Shown here: positions 10,491 through 17,908 of the stretch, piece after piece
Numbering within the stretch: the stretch's first letter is position 1
Layout of the letters: the number at the start of each line of letters is the position of its first letter
Origin: a virus
Virus record (IMG/VR): IMGVR_UViG_3300029199_000001
Length of the DNA: 64,000 bases
Direction: 5' to 3' (one strand)
Position numbers and translations under genes: made by a program
Notes under the pieces: model-generated
The model's database searches: none
Told to the model about the DNA's origin: nothing
The model's input: the letters and a program-made list of their open reading frames with translations, nothing else

Positions 10491-10925
10491 TTACTCAGCA
10501 ATGCCGTTGGCGGCCAACCAGCTTTTACGGATGGCGCGGGCATCATGTAGGGCGTTGTGTGGTACGGCCGAAGCTTTGGCACTGCATTCCTCATCGACTT
10601 CCATGGTTAAGGGTTGGACCTCAAACCATTCTCCTGCACCGGTAATCACCGCGTTACAGAAGTGCTTGATGTCGTCCGGGTAGTCGGCGGTCACGTGAAC
10701 CGCTGGGAACTGACCCAGGAACTTTTTCAACCGGTCCTGAAACTCCACCAGTGGAATGGGGTCTTTCTCTAGGATCGGCATGACGTTTTCTTTGACCCAC
10801 GGGTCGATGGCTTCGGAGCATTCGACCACTTCATAGAACTCACGTTCCCCGTCTTCACTGACCAGTGCCATGGAAATCAATCCACCGCCCATACTGTTAA
10901 ATTCACAATCGATAAACAACTGCAT
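10491..10925 (-). CDS. 3'-5' exoribonuclease (DEDDh, Rv2179c-like)
   Basis: FIDCEFN, ISMALVSEDG and HNALHDA motifs. Confidence 0.85.
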   Translation of the reverse strand: MQLFIDCEFNSMGGGLISMALVSEDGEREFYEVVECSEAIDPWVKENVMPILEKDPIPLVEFQDRLKKFLGQFPAVHVTADYPDDIKHFCNAVITGAGEWFEVQPLTMEVDEECSAKASAVPHNALHDARAIRKSWLAANGIAE

Positions 10926-10988
10926 TAGGACATCCTTACTTGATAGGTTTGGTAATCATACTCATAACCGGGATAAATAAAAAAAAAG

Positions 10989-11339
10989 TTACAGACGATC
11001 TTTAAAGACGATCAACAACAAGCCGGCAATCACCAGTGTCATACCCAGTACTTCCACACCGGTGACGGTTTTGGCCTTTAGTACCACCACTTGAATCAAC
11101 ACACTGACTAACAACCCGGTTCCATAGGCGGTGACCGCCAAGGTGGGGTAACTCAGTGTTTCATAACCCCGACCATAATAGTAGGCATAACAAACTGTGG
11201 CGACGTAACTGGCTGGAAGACACATCAGTGCGATGAACAATATTGACCGAAGTTGACCGTTCGTTTGTAGTACTTTAACGGCCCAGATGTTCGGTATCTG
11301 CACAAACAACGTGGCCAGTATAATAGAAACGTAAATCAC
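10989..11339 (-). CDS. four-TM membrane protein, SMR/DMT-like
   Basis: Four hydrophobic segments in 116 aa; C-terminal LGMTLVIAGLLLI. Confidence 0.6.
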   Translation of the reverse strand: MIYVSIILATLFVQIPNIWAVKVLQTNGQLRSILFIALMCLPASYVATVCYAYYYGRGYETLSYPTLAVTAYGTGLLVSVLIQVVVLKAKTVTGVEVLGMTLVIAGLLLIVFKDRL

Positions 11340-11387
11340 AACGCCCCCTTAATGTACGATCACATCATTGGGCCGTGGGGACGCGAC

Positions 11388-11417
11388 AAAAAAAAAAGAG
11401 GACCCGAAGGTCCTCTT
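11388..11417 (-). terminator. intrinsic terminator with UUCG loop
   Basis: AAGAGGACC-UUCG-GGUCCUCUU followed by a long U-run on the minus strand. Confidence 0.85.
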
Positions 11418-11427
11418 GTTCGACGGC

Positions 11428-12060
11428 TTACATAAAGCCCATGTCTCGGACTTCATGGTTCGATTCGATCAGCAAGAAACGGACTAGGAACATGAACTGG
11501 TGTTCCGGCTGGATGGGGTATGGGTTTGGGTACATGCCGTAATTGCGTGGGTCAGGCTGTGCCCCAAACTGCTGGTATCCACCGGTCGGATCACCCATGC
11601 CCATGGTGGGCCGTGGGCCCGGCTGGTATGTGCCAAAACCGCCATTTCCAAAGCCTGGCAGCAGGTTGGCCATGATCGCAAAGAACATGTCACTGGGGAA
11701 CTCAACGTACACCACATGCGATTCACCGTTAGGGACGATCGCAAACGTGTGCTTGGGGGGTTGCCACGCGGGCTGGTCTTCATTGACATCCTCATTGACC
11801 GGTTCTTCCAAGAGACGCACATCGGAGAATACCGTGTAGCCGTCTTGAGCGATGACCTTCTCCAGTTTCTGGAGCATTGGGGCGAGTGCGTTGGTAACGT
11901 CCGCCGCCGTGAATGGACTGAGTCGGCGCTTGTCCATGATACCCCCGGCGACCATATTGCTCTGAGGCACGACCTTGGACTTCATGTGCAGAATCTCCAT
12001 GACCCGCTCGCGCAGTTCTTTAGGGGACATGCTCATGTAGTAGTTTGTGTTCATTTGCAT
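11428..12060 (-). CDS. hypothetical protein (210 aa) with P/G/Q-rich C-terminal region
   Basis: AAGGA RBS; promoter motif upstream. Confidence 0.75.
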   Translation of the reverse strand: MQMNTNYYMSMSPKELRERVMEILHMKSKVVPQSNMVAGGIMDKRRLSPFTAADVTNALAPMLQKLEKVIAQDGYTVFSDVRLLEEPVNEDVNEDQPAWQPPKHTFAIVPNGESHVVYVEFPSDMFFAIMANLLPGFGNGGFGTYQPGPRPTMGMGDPTGGYQQFGAQPDPRNYGMYPNPYPIQPEHQFMFLVRFLLIESNHEVRDMGFM

Positions 12061-12121
12061 GGTTGATTCCTTTTGTGGTTGCAGTTGTGTGTCTTTTTTT
12101 TTGAGTACTTAACTCACCTGA

Positions 12122-12130
12122 GTGATATAG
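12122..12130 (-). promoter_or_regulatory. CTATATCAC putative early promoter core
   Basis: Exact copy; 17-nt context identical to 42241-42257. Confidence 0.65.
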
Positions 12131-12144
12131 GTGTCAATTATGGA

Positions 12145-12387
12145 TCAGTCGTCCATTCCTTCGAACGCGTCCCCTTCTTCGTAAGTGTCGTTGGTGATGG
12201 CGTCATCGACATCTTCGCCAGCGGCGTAGACCTCGTCAAACACCCAATCCACCAACCAGTTTCGATCGTCATCGGTTTGATCTACCGATGTAACCCGGGC
12301 GGATTCAAACAGCTGTTCCAAGTTCTCACGCGCCTCAGCGGCGGTGGGCTCGTCTACCAAGATTTGTACCGTTGCAATAAAAGCCAT
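12145..12387 (-). CDS. acidic hypothetical protein (80 aa, MAFIATVQ...)
   Basis: ORF 12145..12498 trimmed to the ATG at 12387, with GAGGG RBS. Confidence 0.7.
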   Translation of the reverse strand: MAFIATVQILVDEPTAAEARENLEQLFESARVTSVDQTDDDRNWLVDWVFDEVYAAGEDVDDAITNDTYEEGDAFEGMDD

Positions 12388-12417
12388 GATGTGACCCTCG
12401 TTCAGATGCGGTATAGA

Positions 12418-12957
12418 GGCCTGCCCCGAAGGACAGGCCAAGATGCCATTTAAGCACCCCATAGGCGTCTTGAGTTTCGAGGCGGATCTCCGGATCACCC
12501 GCGCTGTAGAAAACGCCTACAGGCTGCCTGCTCAGGGATAGTTCCTTGTTTAGCACGAATAAGCCCAAGCGACAACTTGGCGACGACTGGTAAGGTACGT
12601 CGCCCGTACGGTTACGAGCGGTGTGACTACCAATCACACCACCCAGCAGGTGCCTAACATCTCCAACCGTAAACTCGATGAAGGGAGGCGCATGTGCCTC
12701 TTATGACTCCGTGGGAGTTTCGTTCCTTTTAACGTCGGGAACTCATCAGATAACACGACGTGTACATACCATCACACCCGGGGTAGTTTTTATGGGGTGA
12801 CGGAATAGCGGGCACCGCCGAAGCGGTGCCCGGGCTACCGTGGTTTTGGCCTTCGTAAAGACCGCATCTGTATTTGCAGATGCTTGGGACGGTAAAACCG
12901 CCTGAGTGTGTCCGCGAATCAAATTGTAAAAGATCGTGTCAGGACAGGTCTGACATA
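12418..12957 (-). ncRNA. putative large structured ncRNA/leader containing a hammerhead ribozyme
   Basis: More than 10 predicted helices, two UUCG tetraloops, G-U pairs mostly consistent with the minus strand, no credible ORF; boundaries approximate. Confidence 0.6.
12701..12761 (-). ncRNA. type I hammerhead ribozyme (predicted cleavage after GUC, between 12705 and 12704)
   Basis: UUAU-CUGAUGA-GUUCC(loop)GGAAC-GAAA-CUCC(CAC)GGAG-UC-AUAA; 5' ACGUCG pairs with loop II CGACGU. Confidence 0.9.
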
Positions 12958-12980
12958 ATATTGGGGATACCCTGGAAAAG

Positions 12981-13598
12981 TTAACCATGTAGCCATTCCC
13001 GGAACTCGCCCAATTTCAGTTGCTTGTAACACTCCCACAACGGGTCGGGGTGATTGGCTTTGATCAGATCAAACAGCAGTCGGGCCACATGATCATACCA
13101 GAGGTTGAGTTCGGGAATTCCCAAACACCGTGCCAATTCGACCGCTGTCCGTGTCCCGCCTTTCACGCTCCCTTTCCCATCGGGTTCGGCGTAGTAGACG
13201 ATGAAGTCCGAAGGCAAATCTAGGTTCTCCCCCAATACCTGGTAGCCGTTTCGGCCATGCAAGTTCAGGTGTGATTCTTTGAGGTTACCACCAGCAGGGT
13301 GAATCTTCTTGGCAATTTGACGCGCGACTTCCTGGTTGGACTTCTTCCCCAAGATGCGATTCTCGGGAACATCGATGCGCCCGTTAAACCCGGGCCAAGG
13401 AAGGTAGATCTCAATCTGTTCCGATTGGCTGGTCCCGGTGGCCCGCACGGCCCCGCGTTCGAATTCCGAGTCGGAGCCGTCGGCACCGCCTGACCGAAAC
13501 CCCCAACCCAACCGGACGAGGTAGCACGCAATGAAACTGAGCAGCCGTCCCCGTGGACCGGGAATGTCACGACTGCCCACACCGGTGAAGATTTTCAT
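12981..13598 (-). CDS. SLOG-superfamily (DprA/YspA-like) protein
   Basis: FTGVGSR, FRSGGADGSD and KGGTRTAVELA motifs. Confidence 0.8.
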   Translation of the reverse strand: MKIFTGVGSRDIPGPRGRLLSFIACYLVRLGWGFRSGGADGSDSEFERGAVRATGTSQSEQIEIYLPWPGFNGRIDVPENRILGKKSNQEVARQIAKKIHPAGGNLKESHLNLHGRNGYQVLGENLDLPSDFIVYYAEPDGKGSVKGGTRTAVELARCLGIPELNLWYDHVARLLFDLIKANHPDPLWECYKQLKLGEFREWLHG

Positions 13599-13894
13599 CG
13601 ATGTCTCCAGAGAAAGTAATTCGGGTTCAGCCCAATGACATCCATGTCGGCGTTCACACAGAACTCAATGTGACACCGTTCTACTTCGTAACTGATGGGG
13701 ATGAATTCGGGCAACTGGTCTCGGGTTAACTTGATGGCGGTGTCGCCTTTGACCAACACACACCAATCGCTGAATGCCGGACACACCACCTCGTACGTCT
13801 TTTCTTTGGCGTACAGGTCGGGGCTGGTCACCAGCATGATCAGGAAGAAAACAATCAGTGCCAGAATGGCGTCGCAAATACGTTTTTTGTACAT
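13595..13894 (-). CDS. hypothetical protein with N-terminal signal/TM segment (99 aa)
   Basis: ATG at 13894 with GAGGG RBS; hydrophobic ILALIVFFLIMLV. Confidence 0.65.
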   Translation of the reverse strand: MYKKRICDAILALIVFFLIMLVTSPDLYAKEKTYEVVCPAFSDWCVLVKGDTAIKLTRDQLPEFIPISYEVERCHIEFCVNADMDVIGLNPNYFLWRHR

Positions 13895-13934
13895 GGGTCC
13901 CTCACTCGTTCTTAGTTGTTTGATGAACATAACG

Positions 13935-13960
13935 CCCTCCCTCTTCGGAGGGAGGGTTAT
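13935..13960. terminator. UUCG hairpin, CATAA/TTATG-flanked
   Basis: CCCTCCCTC-TTCG-GAGGGAGGG. Confidence 0.7.
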
Positions 13961-13965
13961 GCAGG

Positions 13966-14169
13966 TTACGCCGCCGGTTTTCGTTTTTCCACCCGCTGGT
14001 AGAACTTACGAAATTCCTTCGCGCTGATCGTAAACCGATCTTCCCGTTCCGGGCATTGCAAAACGACTTTGTCCCGGCGTAGCTCTTTCAGTATAGCATG
14101 GGTTTTCAGTCCGTGGCGCTGTTTGACGAAGAGTCGCCCGATGTTGTCTTCCAAAACTATATCCTGCAT
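13966..14169 (-). CDS. hypothetical protein (67 aa)
   Basis: ORF between tmk and the terminator. Confidence 0.6.
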   Translation of the reverse strand: MQDIVLEDNIGRLFVKQRHGLKTHAILKELRRDKVVLQCPEREDRFTISAKEFRKFYQRVEKRKPAA

Positions 14170-14202
14170 GGTTAACCTATTTACCTTGTCACAGTGTTGT
14201 TG

Positions 14203-14889
14203 TTAGGGAGACGCGGTTTGCGTATCCGCCATACTATCGAGATCAGAGTCGGTTTTGTTGGCGAGGTCTTCCACGAAGGCAAAGACGTCGTTCGCTACCG
14301 CTTCTTCGGTCTGGTTACCATCCACCGTTGCATGGTGCGGGAGATTCAAAGCAAACCCGCGCAGGGTGTCGTTGATCTTAGTGAAGAACTCTTGGGTCTC
14401 ATCGTCGATCCGATCACTACCGTCTTTACGGGCCGCTCGGCGCTGCACGCTGACCTCGTCATCGACGTCGAGGTAAACGGTCAGATGCGGGGAATGATCG
14501 CCCACCACGTTCACCATCATGTCGAAAAAGAAGCCTTCGTTGACACCGCGACCAACACATTGGTACGCGTAGGTCGTTTCAATGAACCGATCACACAGTA
14601 CCCAACGACCTTCAGCCAAGGCGGGCAGGATGCGGTTGTCCAGGTGTTGTTGGCGAGCGGCGAAAATCAACAACAGCTCAGTGTTTCCAGCCACCGGTTC
14701 GTCCCGTTTTTTCAACATGACGTCGCGGATCTCTTCGGCCATGGGGGTACCACCCGGCTCACGTGTGGTGATGTGGTCAATGCCCAGCTCGGTGAGTTTC
14801 TCGGACAGTAGTTTGAGTTGCGTGCTTTTGCCGGCACCGTCACCGCCTTCAAAAACAATGAACTGCGGTGGGAGTGATGTTAAGCTCAT
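14203..14889 (-). CDS. tmk: thymidylate kinase
   Basis: FEGGDGAGKST P-loop, TREPGGT, CDRF and AYQ motifs. Confidence 0.96.
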   Translation of the reverse strand: MSLTSLPPQFIVFEGGDGAGKSTQLKLLSEKLTELGIDHITTREPGGTPMAEEIRDVMLKKRDEPVAGNTELLLIFAARQQHLDNRILPALAEGRWVLCDRFIETTYAYQCVGRGVNEGFFFDMMVNVVGDHSPHLTVYLDVDDEVSVQRRAARKDGSDRIDDETQEFFTKINDTLRGFALNLPHHATVDGNQTEEAVANDVFAFVEDLANKTDSDLDSMADTQTASP

Positions 14890-14926
14890 GGGTAATCCTT
14901 AAACAAATGAAAAAGAAGAATGTGGA

Positions 14927-14953
14927 TAAAGGCGACCCAATGAAGGGCCGCCT
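14927..14953 (-). terminator. intrinsic terminator
   Basis: GGCGGCCC/GGGUCGCC followed by UUUAU on the minus strand. Confidence 0.7.
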
Positions 14954-14973
14954 CTTTGTCCGCGAACAGTTGA

Positions 14974-15390
14974 TTAACTGTTGATGTCGTCGAACAGTCC
15001 TTTCAGATGACGATGGACTTTACCCATCTCACCACCGTCGAGGCCTTTGACTTCAACAACGTTACGCACCGGCGTGGTGCTCTCGCGCTCGAAGTGTGCC
15101 CAGGAGGTGTTCTGGCCGTGGTTGTAGTTCACCGAGATTTCTTTCAGTTCGGGATGGGACTCGAACTTCTCAGCGGCTACCTGACCGGCCGCCAACGTGG
15201 TGGCTGCCAGCACTTCACTGTCATGCTTCTGGAGCTTCTTCACTTCGTCCAGAGTCAGACCCACCTCACCGTCTTCGAGCGTCTTCTCGTAGAAGTTCTT
15301 CGGCAGGCTGATCACACCTGATTTTTCGTCGAACTTCATCTTGTCGGAGATGCCAAACTTCTCGACGGATTTTTCGGTCTTAAGTGCCAT
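14974..15390 (-). CDS. hypothetical early protein (138 aa, MALKTEK...)
   Basis: ATG at 15390 after AAGAGAG; promoter motif upstream. Confidence 0.75.
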   Translation of the reverse strand: MALKTEKSVEKFGISDKMKFDEKSGVISLPKNFYEKTLEDGEVGLTLDEVKKLQKHDSEVLAATTLAAGQVAAEKFESHPELKEISVNYNHGQNTSWAHFERESTTPVRNVVEVKGLDGGEMGKVHRHLKGLFDDINS

Positions 15391-15498
15391 GTTACGGTTC
15401 TCTCTTTTTTGCAGTTGGTTTAGACTCATGAGTCGAGGCGTGTACCGCCTCATAGTTGCTGCCGTATAAGTAGTTTATTACAGCGGCAATGCACAGTG

Positions 15499-15507
15499 GT
15501 GATATAG
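15499..15507 (-). promoter_or_regulatory. CTATATCAC putative early promoter core
   Basis: Exact copy just downstream of a terminator. Confidence 0.65.
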
Positions 15508-15527
15508 ATCTCAAGACCGGTAGAATC

Positions 15528-15556
15528 GACATAAAGGTGGGGCCCGAAGGCCCCAC
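15528..15556 (-). terminator. UUCG terminator followed by UUUAUGUC
   Basis: GUGGGGCC-UUCG-GGCCCCAC. Confidence 0.8.
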
Positions 15557-15570
15557 AGTCTGCGTCGGCG

Positions 15571-15810
15571 TTATTTCATCAACCGATACAAACCCACGCC
15601 CAGCTCGACGGCGAGGTTGAGTTCGTTCTTCGGTTTACTCTCGCCTTCCGTTTCTTTGAGACGACGGTAGACGTGACCCCGACGGGCAAACGGGTTGTTC
15701 AGTTCTTCTTCGGCTTCCTTTACAAAGGCGAGAACGTCACGCACGCGACTGTTCTGCAACAGAAAGTAAAGAGCGGCCTTGAGAACCATTTTGATAACGA
15801 CTGTTTTCAT
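15571..15810 (-). CDS. hypothetical protein (79 aa, MKTVVIK...)
   Basis: ATG at 15810 with AAGGA RBS. Confidence 0.65.
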   Translation of the reverse strand: MKTVVIKMVLKAALYFLLQNSRVRDVLAFVKEAEEELNNPFARRGHVYRRLKETEGESKPKNELNLAVELGVGLYRLMK

Positions 15811-15847
15811 AGAAGGTTCCTTTAAGGAGTGATGGGTGAATGGGTTG

Positions 15848-17854
15848 CTAGAACCGGTTACTGGTCTGGGCAAACGCGGAGATCGCCCGGACCGGAGCCG
15901 TGTCCATGGTCATTGACAAGAAGTTACTCGGCGAGCGCCAGTTCTTAAACCCTTGCAGTGCTCGGGTCATGTTCAGGTTCAGCCGGTTCTTGACATAGTA
16001 GGTGTCTGAGACCGGCAACGACGTGAGCACTGCCATATAATCGGAGAACAAGCTCTGCTCGTCCCAAACCTGGCTGTTGGTTGCCGCTTGAGCCAGCCCG
16101 GCGGCGGTGTCCCCACCGAGACCCTCAGCGACCAAAGTGGTACCGGCCGAGGCCAGGTCCTTGGTCCAGTTCCCTGTGGTAAACCCGCTTTTAATTGGGA
16201 TGTGCATAATGCTGGACAGGTCCACCACCGAGAAGGTCAGTTCTGCCCCCAACATGTCGTGATCAGCATTCCAGCCCACGTTACCCGTACCCCGGGTCAG
16301 GGTGATGGATTCGATCATCCCGAGCTGACATTGTACCCGACCTTGGTGAAAGATCTGGCAGATGAACGGACTGGTGTACGAACTCCGCCCTGCCGACCGT
16401 GGGAGACCGCCTGCTAACAACATGGCGATTGGTACGTACATGTTGATAAACCGCGACAACTTGTTCCCATACGGTGACGGGAGTGGGACGGTGTATTCTG
16501 CCCGTGGGAGTTGTGCCGTGGAACTATCCCACATTTTTGGGATATCAAAGAACGCTGTGCCTGTGAGCGTGGCCAAGCCGCCCAAATTGACACTGTCCAA
16601 CGCCCCAGCCACAAAACTCTGGACGTAGTTCATGGCCTCCCCGAACATGTCAGTGATGTTACCACCCATGAATGACATGCTCGCCTGCCGACCTTGGGCG
16701 ACTTTGCTGTTCAGTGTCTGGGCCACCTCGGAATCCCGCGTCGAGTTGTTGAACGACTCGGACATGGACCCGTTGTGGTTCACCCGGAAACTGGCAAACT
16801 GACTTCCGTCCCGTTGGTGTGCCCGCATGAATTCATACAGTCCTTTGAAGGACGTGTCGCCCCACGTGCTGATGGACTCGGTGGTGGCGCCCTCAGCGGC
16901 TACCTTACCAGCCTCTGATTTAAGGTACTCTTCAAAGTACTTCTGGGTAGAGATGTCTGGGTTGGGGTCGGTTTCTTTCTCCGCTACGTACTTACTAAAG
17001 TTGTCCCGGAGTTCCTGGTTGCTCCGAGCTTGTTCCTGCATACGTTCCAATGCTAGTTGGGAGTTGTCCGACATCCGCTGGGTACGAGTGGCCAAGGACA
17101 TCACATCGATACCACCCTCTTCACGAAAAATGTCCGGAAACATCGTGTGGATCTTTTTCAGCAAATCCTCATCCACGGTTTGACCCGGGTCTTTCTTCGG
17201 TGCTTTACCATCGTTACTGTAATCGAGCTGGGTGGGTGCCAAGACACGGGGTGTCAGTCCCAACCCAATGGCCATTTCGTTGGCGATGGTATTTACCGCT
17301 GACCAGTACGCGTGCATGGTCGGTTTGAAGTAGTACCACTTACTGGGCTGGTTCTTTGCCAAGAAGTCGTACACTCGTTTTACGGCGGAAACACCCATGA
17401 TGAACGGTTGCAGTGGGAGCGTTACCACGAATCCCCCGACAAAACCGGCGTTGTACCAAAGCCCAGACACCCGACCGGTGTTGGCCAGCAAGGCCGCGTT
17501 ACGGTCGTAGAAGTTGGTGAAGAAACTGGTCCAACTGGAGAACTGCGGGACCCCAAAACTCATATGGATGATCTGTTTCGGATCATCAATGGCTTCGCTG
17601 TAATACCGACCCATGCCCTGAGAGCGTTCGGCTTCCGTACGTCCCTTTCCAGGTTGCCGGATATCAGCGTACCTGGTGAACTGGGGTGGGTTGTTGATAG
17701 CCCAGTTACCACCCAGCGTAGTGTTGGTAAACTTAAAAGCCGCCGACGTGGCATACCGTCGTTTGGTTCTGCTCCCGTAGGACAACATGTCTTCACTGGT
17801 CGGCAGCAGGAAGGCATGGCGGAGCCATAAGCTGTTACGGTTCAAATTCGCCAT
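15848..17854 (-). CDS. tail tip/baseplate structural protein (phiKZ gp182-like)
   Basis: ATG at 17854 with GGAGG; directly follows the gp181-like gene; size consistent. Confidence 0.7.
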   Translation of the reverse strand: MANLNRNSLWLRHAFLLPTSEDMLSYGSRTKRRYATSAAFKFTNTTLGGNWAINNPPQFTRYADIRQPGKGRTEAERSQGMGRYYSEAIDDPKQIIHMSFGVPQFSSWTSFFTNFYDRNAALLANTGRVSGLWYNAGFVGGFVVTLPLQPFIMGVSAVKRVYDFLAKNQPSKWYYFKPTMHAYWSAVNTIANEMAIGLGLTPRVLAPTQLDYSNDGKAPKKDPGQTVDEDLLKKIHTMFPDIFREEGGIDVMSLATRTQRMSDNSQLALERMQEQARSNQELRDNFSKYVAEKETDPNPDISTQKYFEEYLKSEAGKVAAEGATTESISTWGDTSFKGLYEFMRAHQRDGSQFASFRVNHNGSMSESFNNSTRDSEVAQTLNSKVAQGRQASMSFMGGNITDMFGEAMNYVQSFVAGALDSVNLGGLATLTGTAFFDIPKMWDSSTAQLPRAEYTVPLPSPYGNKLSRFINMYVPIAMLLAGGLPRSAGRSSYTSPFICQIFHQGRVQCQLGMIESITLTRGTGNVGWNADHDMLGAELTFSVVDLSSIMHIPIKSGFTTGNWTKDLASAGTTLVAEGLGGDTAAGLAQAATNSQVWDEQSLFSDYMAVLTSLPVSDTYYVKNRLNLNMTRALQGFKNWRSPSNFLSMTMDTAPVRAISAFAQTSNRF

Positions 17855-17908
17855 TCTTACCTCCGGATAAAAGGTCCCCGGCGCATTGCCGGGGACCAAC
17901 AGGGTTGA

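What the first reader, a model, noticed from the sequence alone, without database searches (positions are those of the whole stretch)
12701..12761. Canonical type I hammerhead ribozyme in a jumbo-phage intergenic gap
The minus strand reads ACGUCG-UG-UUAU-CUGAUGA-GUUCC-CGACGUUAAAA-GGAAC-GAAA-CUCC-CAC-GGAG-UC-AUAA. All core nucleotides are present (CUGAUGA, GAAA, GUC cleavage triplet) and stems I-III pair perfectly. The 5' flank ACGUCG (12756-12761) is exactly complementary to CGACGU in loop II (12732-12737), the kind of pseudoknot known to stabilise microbial hammerheads. Predicted cleavage is between 12705 and 12704. The pairings are read from the sequence; activity is inferred from established hammerhead rules.
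Basis: partly seen in the sequence, partly recalled or inferred. Interest (0 to 1): 0.85.

Follow-up and report, generated by a model that had tools for sequence, protein, structure and literature searches.

The report
Hammerhead ribozyme in jumbo-phage gap
A complete, very probably genuine self-cutting hammerhead RNA sits between two genes of an uncultured phiKZ-like giant phage, where it most likely cuts a long folded non-coding transcript in two; this kind of element is already well known in phages, so it is a clean new example, not a new kind of thing.

Summary
The motif is in the sequence exactly as described: window minus strand 12761-12701, with the predicted cut between 12705 and 12704. 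It has all 11 core nucleotides, the A15.1-U16.1 pair, C17, three perfect stems (4, 5 and 5 bp) and a 6-bp pairing between the 5' tail and loop II.

It is the only such motif in the 231.8-kb genome. None of 300 shuffled genomes gave a comparable hit.

Rfam's type I model aligns it full length (22.1 bits, E=8e-4 for the genome), below the gathering score of 34. Rfam at gathering score also lists none of the six other type I hammerhead motifs I fetched, five of them with a consensus core, so that shortfall says little.

One of four other related lineages keeps the element. It has compensatory changes in stem I and the pseudoknot, and a U4C core change, a natural variant reported to be tolerated. 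Three lineages lack it entirely.

It lies sense to all neighbouring genes, in a 593-nt strongly folded intergenic region, directly ahead of a ~310-nt structured RNA.

Activity and transcription are untested; no RNA run was listed.

Verdict: a real hammerhead and a new member of a known kind. This scan has already noted phage hammerheads on many other genomes (162 notes).

The parts
12756..12761 (-). 5' tail ACGUCG, the 5' strand of the pseudoknot with loop II
   Evidence: It is perfectly complementary to 12732-12737. In L007 the C-G pair is replaced by G-C.
12750..12753 (-). Stem I, 5' strand (UUAU, positions 2.4-2.1)
   Evidence: It pairs with 12701-12704. In L007 the outer pair changes from U-A to C-G.
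12743..12749 (-). Catalytic core C3-U4-G5-A6-U7-G8-A9 (CUGAUGA)
   Evidence: L007 reads CCGAUGA, i.e. U4C.
12722..12742 (-). Stem II (GUUCC/GGAAC, 5 bp) closed by the 11-nt loop II. The loop's first six bases (12737-12732, CGACGU) form the 3' strand of the pseudoknot.
   Evidence: Stem II is identical in L007. The whole-region minimum-energy fold also forms stem II.
12719..12721 (-). Core G12-A13-A14
12706..12718 (-). Stem III hairpin: A15.1-CUCC, loop CAC, GGAG-U16.1
   Evidence: all fold it. In L007 it is weaker: an A.G mismatch at 15.2-16.2, and 15.3-16.3 flipped from U-A to A-U in the best register.
12704..12705 (-). Predicted cleavage site: C17 (12705) | A1.1 (12704). The 5' product would end in a 2',3'-cyclic phosphate and the 3' product would start with a 5'-OH.
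   Evidence: The position follows from the hammerhead numbering applied. The chemistry is established knowledge of the class and was not tested here.
12701..12704 (-). Stem I, 3' strand (AUAA, positions 1.1-1.4)
12685..12700 (-). GAGGC/GCCUC hairpin directly abutting stem I. Its stem is identical in L007 while its loop differs.
12395..12704 (-). 3' cleavage product: a ~310-nt strongly folded non-coding RNA. It ends in a conserved helix flanked by GCAGCCUGU and AUGGGGUGC, followed by a GC-rich terminator-like hairpin (12398-12531).
   Evidence: Folding z-score -4.7, with 0 of 100 shuffles folding as well. The 3' helix and terminal hairpin are shared with L007 and L003.
12790..12960 (-). Conserved upstream structured module, which would stay attached to the ribozyme in the 5' product. 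It is present in all five related lineages.
   Evidence: RNAalifold on five lineages predicts 39 pairs, 13 of them with compensatory changes. There is no Rfam family at gathering score.
12981..13598 (-). Upstream gene: DprA-like protein, 205 aa
   Evidence: phrog_768, E=1.4e-54; tblastn annotations
12145..12387 (-). Downstream gene: 80-aa very acidic protein of unknown function, 75-85% identical in four related lineages
   Evidence: No Pfam or PHROG family.

Best explanation
This is a genuine type I hammerhead self-cleaving ribozyme.

Transcription (inferred). It is transcribed on the window's minus strand, together with or just after the DprA-like gene. All genes from 10491 to 17899 lie on that strand.

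Fold (read from the sequence). The RNA forms stem I (4 bp), stem II (5 bp) and stem III (5 bp including A15.1-U16.1) around the canonical core. A 6-bp pseudoknot between the 5' tail and loop II holds stems I and II side by side.

Cleavage (inferred from the known chemistry of the class). The RNA cuts itself after C17, between 12705 and 12704. The ribozyme stays on the upstream fragment with a 2',3'-cyclic phosphate end. The downstream RNA is released with a 5'-OH end. Because stem I is only four A-U pairs, the products should separate at once.

Role (inferred). The cut divides the transcript of a 593-nt structured intergenic region into two parts:
- a conserved ~190-nt hairpin-rich module plus the ribozyme;
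- a ~310-nt folded RNA that ends at a terminator-like hairpin just ahead of the 80-aa gene.

So the ribozyme most likely defines the 5' end of that downstream structured RNA, or of the leader of the 80-aa gene. It is an accessory module, carried by only some lineages of this phage group.
For: - Complete motif at the stated coordinates.
- Unique in the genome: 0 of 300 shuffled genomes give a hit with stems of >=4 bp.
- Rfam RF00163 aligns it over the full model, with E=8.3e-4 for the genome.
- It is sense to all flanking genes.
- The ortholog in L007 keeps it with compensatory double changes in the pseudoknot (C-G to G-C) and in stem I (U-A to C-G). 94% of pair cells are paired, against 29-53% when the partners are slid.
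- It is 79% identical between the two phages, against 53% and 43% for the neighbouring intergenic DNA and 62% for the DprA-like gene.
- The intergenic region as a whole folds far better than shuffles (z=-5.4), and so does the 3' product (z=-4.7).
- In the whole-region minimum-energy fold, stems II and III and the 3' hairpin all form.
- Other type I hammerheads with the same stem II sequence occur in phage contigs, including a second phiKZ-like 220-kb phage where one also precedes a ~330-nt folded RNA (z=-5.7).
- Hammerheads in phage intergenic regions, and pseudoknot contacts between stems I and II, have been established experimentally (PMC3088659).
Against: - There is no experimental or RNA-seq evidence. 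No RNA run was listed.
- The Rfam gathering score is not reached.
- The element is missing from three of the four other related lineages, and the carriers do not form a supported clade. It is therefore dispensable.
- The only other copy has U4C and a weaker stem III.
- With only two distinct sequences the covariation statistics are weak: 139 of 500 shuffles reach the observed value.
- Nested-structure thermodynamics place the three-way junction 5-6 kcal/mol above the minimum-energy fold in context, and the local 71-nt segment has an unremarkable z-score of 0.27. These programs cannot count the pseudoknot.
- Stem I is four A-U pairs only.
- The promoter, the terminator and hence the true transcript are not known.
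Confidence: 0.75

Rival explanations
1. The hammerhead is the head of a portable 'ribozyme plus structured RNA' cassette that was inserted into, or lost from, a conserved non-coding locus. On this reading it serves the inserted RNA or its own spread, not the flanking phage genes. This overlaps with the best explanation on the chemistry and differs on origin and beneficiary.
For: - The ribozyme, its 3' hairpin and the variable RNA after it are present in the window and L007 and absent as a block from L003, L017 and L018.
- The carriers are not sister lineages in a weakly supported tree.
- The ribozyme is more conserved than the flanking genes at the nucleotide level.
- In two unrelated phage contigs a type I hammerhead with the same stem II lies about 375 nt upstream of the Rfam GOLLD match, right after a TTGACA-type promoter.
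- Earlier notes of this scan describe hammerhead-led portable RNAs in other phages. These are leads only.
Against: - No similar DNA in the phage collection.
- No significant similarity between the post-ribozyme RNA here and that of L012, L008 or L010.
- I saw no target-site duplication or repeat at the boundaries.
- With five roughly equidistant lineages, two or three losses explain the pattern equally well.
Confidence: 0.25
2. The motif is a decaying or neutral relic. Its sequence still looks perfect in this phage, but it has no selected role, and it may or may not still cut.
For: - Absent in three related lineages.
- The only other copy carries a core substitution (U4C) and a mismatch in stem III.
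- The cultured relatives PA1C, Noxifer, PhiPA3 and phiKZ have no hammerhead by the Rfam model or by a core pattern.
Against: - The core is intact here, and identical copies occur in several metagenomes.
- Compensatory changes maintain stem I and the pseudoknot across about 35% protein divergence.
- The element is the best conserved stretch of the variable part of the gap.
- U4C is a natural variant reported to retain biological function (PMC3088659).
Confidence: 0.12
3. The resemblance is chance. The hairpins are ordinary leader or terminator structures and the core-like bases mean nothing.
For: - Rfam gathering scores are not reached.
- Simple motifs are expected by chance somewhere in a scan of very many windows (stated as a general caution in PMC3088659).
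- The local folding z-score is unremarkable.
Against: - 0 of 300 shuffled genomes give a comparable hit.
- All 11 core positions, A15.1-U16.1 and H17 are present, along with a 6-bp tertiary pairing.
- Ten of the eleven core nucleotides and all helices are kept in L007 while the surrounding DNA diverges to 43-53% identity.
Confidence: 0.04

Closest known systems
Type I hammerhead ribozymes of bacteria, prophages and phages (Perreault et al. 2011, PMC3088659; Rfam RF00163, clan CL00010)
   Same: [quoted passage not shown]
   Different: It scores below the Rfam gathering threshold (22.1 against 34 bits). Stem I is unusually short, with four A-U pairs. The pseudoknot uses the 5' tail of stem I and loop II. 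It is a single copy, not one of the clusters flanking genes described for prophages.
Hammerheads in intergenic regions of phages PaP3 and Bcep176, and natural core variants (PMC3088659, Figure S6 and discussion)
   Same: Lone hammerheads in phage intergenic DNA. The related copy in L007 carries U4C, one of the natural core variants reported as still biologically functional.
   Different: The host phage is a phiKZ-like giant phage. I found no paper in the library that links hammerheads with jumbo phages, and four cultured relatives have none.
Type I hammerheads found here in other viral contigs (L008-L012), two of them upstream of GOLLD RNA (Rfam RF02032)
   Same: Same stem II sequence (GUUCC/GGAAC), same type I topology, and placement ahead of a long structured non-coding RNA.
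   Different: The downstream RNAs show no detectable sequence or model-level similarity to the one here. The RNA here is about 310 nt and matches no Rfam family.

Membership tests
Hammerhead ribozyme (class), type I topology | Conserved core C3 U4 G5 A6 N7 G8 A9 and G12 A13 A14 | tested here: met
   CUGAUGA at 12749-12743 and GAA at 12721-12719
Hammerhead ribozyme (class), type I topology | A15.1-U16.1 pair followed by H17 (not G) at the cleavage site | tested here: met
   A at 12718 pairs with U at 12706; C17 is at 12705
Hammerhead ribozyme (class), type I topology | Three helices with no mispair next to the core (10.1-11.1, 1.1-2.1, 15.1-16.1). These are the acceptance criteria of Perreault et al. 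2011. | tested here: met
   G-C, A-U and A-U respectively. The stems are 4, 5 and 5 bp, all Watson-Crick.
Hammerhead ribozyme (class), type I topology | Stem I open; stems II and III closed by loops | tested here: met
   Order along the strand: stem I 5' strand, core, stem II hairpin, GAA, stem III hairpin, C17, stem I 3' strand
Hammerhead ribozyme (class), type I topology | [quoted passage not shown] | tested here: inconclusive
   There is a 6-bp complementarity between 12761-12756 and 12737-12732, and one compensatory C-G to G-C change in L007. The three-dimensional geometry and its effect on rate could not be tested.
Hammerhead ribozyme (class), type I topology | Site-specific self-cleavage giving 2',3'-cyclic phosphate and 5'-OH ends | not testable with these tools
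   No RNA run was listed. This needs a bench assay.
Rfam RF00163 Hammerhead_1 (curated family) | Score at or above the gathering threshold (34 bits) | tested here: not met
   22.1 bits, E=8.3e-4 for the genome, model positions 1-45; no gathering-level hit. This is a curated cut-off of one model, not a defining property of the ribozyme class. At gathering score Rfam also lists none of the six other type I hammerhead motifs in L007-L012, five with a consensus core and L007 with U4C. RF00163 found no match to the L012 copy at E<=1.
Hammerhead ribozyme (class), type I topology | Conservation of core and helices in orthologous loci | tested here: inconclusive
   It is kept in one of four other lineages (L007), with 10 of 11 core bases (U4C) and compensatory stem changes. 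It is absent from L003, L017 and L018.

The most novel reading that the evidence does not exclude
The type I hammerhead is the 5'-end maturation device of a previously undescribed ~310-nt structured RNA. That RNA would be an optional module of a conserved non-coding RNA locus in nucleus-forming (phiKZ-like) giant phages. It would parallel the hammerheads I found about 375 nt upstream of the GOLLD RNA matches in other phages. More generally, phages would use type I hammerheads to give large folded RNAs a defined 5'-OH end.
Probability: 0.3. Interest if true: 0.55.

Novelty: new member of a known kind. Interest (0 to 1): 0.3.

Why it matters
Hammerheads in phage intergenic DNA have been known since 2011, but what they do there is still mostly unknown. 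This copy is useful as a test case for four reasons.

- It is a single ribozyme with an intact core, so it is simple to work with.
- A natural U4C relative provides a built-in pseudoknot and stem I covariation pair to test.
- Sibling lineages without the element provide natural 'empty sites'.
- Its substrate is clear: a strongly folded non-coding region whose two halves it would separate.

It also appears to be the first hammerhead I could find any trace of in the phiKZ-like, nucleus-forming phage group. In these phages RNA processing and export are of current interest.

None of this changes the classification. It is an additional member of a known ribozyme class.

Tried and rejected
1. Shared motifs between the post-ribozyme RNA here and that of the second jumbo phage (L012): GCAGCCUGU...AUGGRGUGC, GUUUUCUACA and CUAUCCCYGAG. 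Local alignment is no better than shuffles (67 of 300 reach the observed score). A covariance model built from the window, L007 and L003 does not find L012. Rejected.

2. Similarity of the post-ribozyme RNA to the RNA between the hammerhead and GOLLD in L008 and L010: none.

3. More orthologs:
- DNA and protein scans of IMG/VR gave nothing related.
- The metagenome pattern scan gave only AT-rich chance hits.
- The genome-contig hit L026 is a 33%-identical protein in an unrelated context.

4. Variants in other sequencing runs: contigs from four runs (freshwater, seawater, marine) carry no difference within the ribozyme. The one difference seen, G>A at 12515 in one run, lies outside it. No new covariation was gained.

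5. The RF00163 hit in G001 (14.5 bits) lies inside a coding region and is a chance match.

6. A recurring promoter motif matching the conserved AATAnTATGTC: it is not repeated elsewhere in the genome. The resemblance to the phiKZ late-promoter TATG (PMC7598289) and to a weak sigma-70 pattern stays a guess.

7. ORFs overlapping the ribozyme (12746-12988 and 12634-12756): no family match for the first (the second was not searched) and not conserved, because the orthologous regions differ by indels.

8. tRNA or tmRNA in the gap: none.

9. Phage-encoded RtcB or RNA ligase that could rejoin the ends: none.

Full report
**1. The observation**

Reading the minus strand of the window gives, from 12761 to 12701:
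- ACGUCG
- UG
- UUAU
- CUGAUGA
- GUUCC
- an 11-nt loop, CGACGUUAAAA
- GGAAC
- GAA
- ACUCC
- CAC
- GGAGU
- C
- AUAA

This is the canonical hammerhead layout in its type I permutation:
- The 5' strand of stem I comes first.
- Core positions C3 to A9 follow.
- Stem II is closed by a loop.
- G12-A13-A14 follows.
- Stem III starts with the A15.1-U16.1 pair and is closed by a loop.
- C17 follows, then the 3' strand of stem I.

The 5' tail ACGUCG (12761-12756) is the exact complement of the first six bases of loop II (12737-12732).

**2. Is it more than chance?**

- A descriptor scan for type I hammerheads over the whole 231,818-bp genome, both strands, returns this site only, with stems of 4, 5 and 5 bp.
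- In 300 dinucleotide-preserving shuffles of the genome there were 0.10 hits per genome at >=3 bp per stem and none at >=4 bp per stem.
- The Rfam type I model (RF00163), run on the genome, places its best hit exactly here. It matches over the whole model at 22.1 bits, E=8.3e-4. The next hit has E=3.9.
- That score is under the gathering score of 34, and cmscan of the window at gathering level reports nothing.
- I do not weigh this shortfall heavily. At gathering score Rfam also lists none of the six other type I hammerhead motifs that I fetched from related and unrelated phage contigs, L007 to L012. Five of them have a consensus core and L007 has U4C.
- RF00163 also reported no match at E<=1 to the copy in a second jumbo phage.

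**3. Context**

- The contig is a 231.8-kb virus record with direct terminal repeats.
- A conserved virion protein (15848-17899, minus strand) is 58% identical to the gp182-like proteins of Pseudomonas phages PA1C, Noxifer and PhiPA3. The phage therefore belongs to the phiKZ-like group, although no close relative is in the phage collection.
- All ORFs from 10491 to 17899 lie on the minus strand, so the ribozyme is in the sense orientation.
- It lies in a 593-nt gap. Upstream is a DprA-like gene (12981-13598; phrog_768). Downstream is an 80-aa very acidic protein of unknown family (12145-12387).
- The gap as a whole folds much better than shuffles (z=-5.4). The minimum-energy fold of the whole region contains stems II and III and the hairpin that abuts stem I.
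- The small ORFs that overlap the ribozyme are not conserved.

**4. Orthologous loci**

Through the two flanking proteins I recovered four other lineages of this phage group, plus identical copies of the window. The five lineages are roughly equidistant: 60-70% identity in the DprA-like protein and 70-85% in the 80-aa protein.

All five share two features:
- A hairpin-rich module of about 190 nt right after the DprA-like stop codon. It has 39 predicted pairs, 13 with compensatory changes.
- A GC-rich terminator-like hairpin just before the 80-aa gene.

The hammerhead itself is present only in the window and in L007. L003, L017 and L018 have shorter gaps (352, about 265 and about 245 nt) with no trace of it.

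In a weakly supported tree L007 groups with L018, not with the window. The distribution is therefore patchy. It needs either several losses or a lateral transfer.

**5. The L007 copy**

It reads UGGUCG-UU-CUAU-CCGAUGA-GUUCC-(loop CGACCUUAACA)-GGAAC-GAA-AAAUCC...GGUGU-C-AUAG. Compared with the window:
- The outer pair of stem I has changed from U-A to C-G.
- One pseudoknot pair has changed from C-G to G-C.
- Stem II and the 3' hairpin stem are unchanged.
- 94% of pair cells are standard pairs, against 29-53% when partners are slid by 1 to 3 columns.
- Stem III is weaker. It has an A.G mismatch at 15.2-16.2, and in the best register the 15.3-16.3 pair is flipped from U-A to A-U.
- The core carries U4->C.

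According to Perreault et al. 2011, U4C considerably decreases activity in vitro but keeps enough activity in vivo for viroid infectivity (PMC3088659). The same paper notes that weak stems III are common.

The ribozyme is 79% identical between the two phages. The spacer before it is 53% identical, the RNA after it 43%, and the DprA-like gene 62%. So it is an island of conservation in the variable part of the gap.

With only two distinct sequences the formal covariation statistics are weak.

**6. How it most likely works**

*Shown by the sequence.* The motif is complete, it lies on the sense strand, and it has a pseudoknot partner.

*Inferred from established knowledge of the class.*
- The RNA cuts itself after C17.
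- The ribozyme is left on the upstream fragment with a 2',3'-cyclic phosphate end.
- The downstream RNA starts with a 5'-OH end.
- A four-pair A-U stem I should let the products separate immediately.

*Inferred from the anatomy.*
- The upstream product is the conserved ~190-nt module plus the ribozyme.
- The downstream product is a ~310-nt strongly folded RNA (z=-4.7).
- That RNA ends with a conserved helix and a terminator-like hairpin shared with L007 and L003, just ahead of the ribosome-binding site of the 80-aa gene.

I therefore favour a role in defining the 5' end of that structured RNA, or of the leader of the 80-aa gene.

*Two observations fit this without proving it.*
- A second phiKZ-like phage of 220 kb (G001/L012, 42% identity in the gp182-like protein) has a textbook type I hammerhead in a ~470-nt gap. 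It is followed by a ~330-nt folded RNA (z=-5.7).
- In two unrelated viral contigs a type I hammerhead with the same stem II lies just after a TTGACA-type promoter and about 375 nt upstream of the Rfam GOLLD match.

*Transcript boundaries are unknown.*
- The conserved AATAnTATGTC after the DprA-like stop resembles the phiKZ late-promoter TATG (PMC7598289) and a weak sigma-70 pattern.
- The hairpin that follows it also looks like a terminator.
- The motif is not repeated elsewhere in the genome.
- No RNA run was listed.

**7. Thermodynamic caveat**

- Nested folding of the 61-nt element prefers the pseudoknot helix plus stem III (-13.2 kcal/mol) over the three-way junction (-5.9 kcal/mol).
- In 131-161-nt contexts, enforcing the hammerhead stems costs 5-6 kcal/mol.
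- The favoured alternative helix is the proposed tertiary pairing itself, and these programs cannot score it together with stem II. I read this as neutral.

**8. Comparison with what is known, and novelty**

- Hammerheads of all three topologies in bacteria, prophages and phage intergenic regions were described in 2011. So were pseudoknot contacts between stems I and II, which occur in about 40% of representatives (PMC3088659).
- This scan has itself noted phage hammerheads many times: 162 notes in at least 142 genomes.
- What is particular here is the host group. I found no paper linking hammerheads with jumbo phages, and PA1C, Noxifer, PhiPA3 and phiKZ have none by model or by core pattern.
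- The modular non-coding locus in which it sits is also particular.
- It is a new member of a known kind.

**9. Things that led nowhere**

- Apparent shared motifs between the post-ribozyme RNAs of the window and L012 are not significant.
- There is no similarity to the RNA after the hammerheads of L008 and L010.
- Further database scans gave no additional orthologs.
- Contigs from four more runs carry no difference within the ribozyme.
- The phage encodes no RtcB or RNA ligase.

Noticed in passing
window 12790-12960 (minus strand); L007:5395-5562, L003:5644-5800, L017:280-440, L018:510-670: A conserved structured RNA module of about 190 nt lies directly after the DprA-like stop codon in all five related phage lineages. 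It has 39 predicted pairs, 13 with compensatory changes, and matches no Rfam family at gathering score. It begins with an invariant AATAnTATGTC and a hairpin followed by GAUCUUUUACAA. These could be a promoter (TATG, as in phiKZ late promoters) or a terminator.
   Followed up: partly
window 12398-12531 (minus strand); L007:5734-5826; L003:5832-5954: A conserved helix flanked by GCAGCCUG and AUGGGGUGC, followed by a terminator-like hairpin just before the 80-aa gene. It is shared by the window, L007 and L003, which has no ribozyme. The inner helix covaries (AGGCGU/ACGCCU against AGGUGU/ACACCU).
   Followed up: partly
L008:6186-7077 and L010:5724-6564 (minus strands; IMG/VR contigs): In two phage contigs a textbook type I hammerhead lies a few tens of nt after a TTGACA-type promoter and about 375 nt upstream of the Rfam GOLLD RNA match, inside tRNA arrays. 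The ribozyme may mark the 5' end of the full GOLLD RNA. I found no paper linking GOLLD with hammerheads.
   Followed up: partly
L009:7407-7472 (-) and L011:6403-6470 (+): Pistol ribozymes (Rfam RF02679, above gathering score) lie within about 1 kb of the type I hammerheads on these two viral contigs.
   Followed up: no
L012:545-605 (minus strand) = G001:C1:78271-78304: A second phiKZ-like jumbo phage (219,772 bp, direct terminal repeats) has a textbook type I hammerhead in a ~470-nt gap. It is followed by a ~330-nt strongly folded RNA (z=-5.7) and an HNH-endonuclease-like ORF. RFAM RF00163 reported no match to it at E<=1.
   Followed up: partly
window 12380-12990: DNA identical or nearly so to this stretch appears in runs labelled gas well, rock, subsurface, oil facility, freshwater, seawater and marine metagenomes from about ten studies. 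That is an unusually wide spread for one phage. It suggests either a cosmopolitan host or a laboratory or reagent-associated organism.
   Followed up: no
window 12145-12387 (minus strand): An 80-aa extremely acidic protein, 75-85% identical in four related lineages, with no Pfam or PHROG family. Its composition recalls DNA-mimic anti-restriction proteins. Perreault et al. noted ardA directly downstream of hammerheads. This is resemblance only.
   Followed up: no
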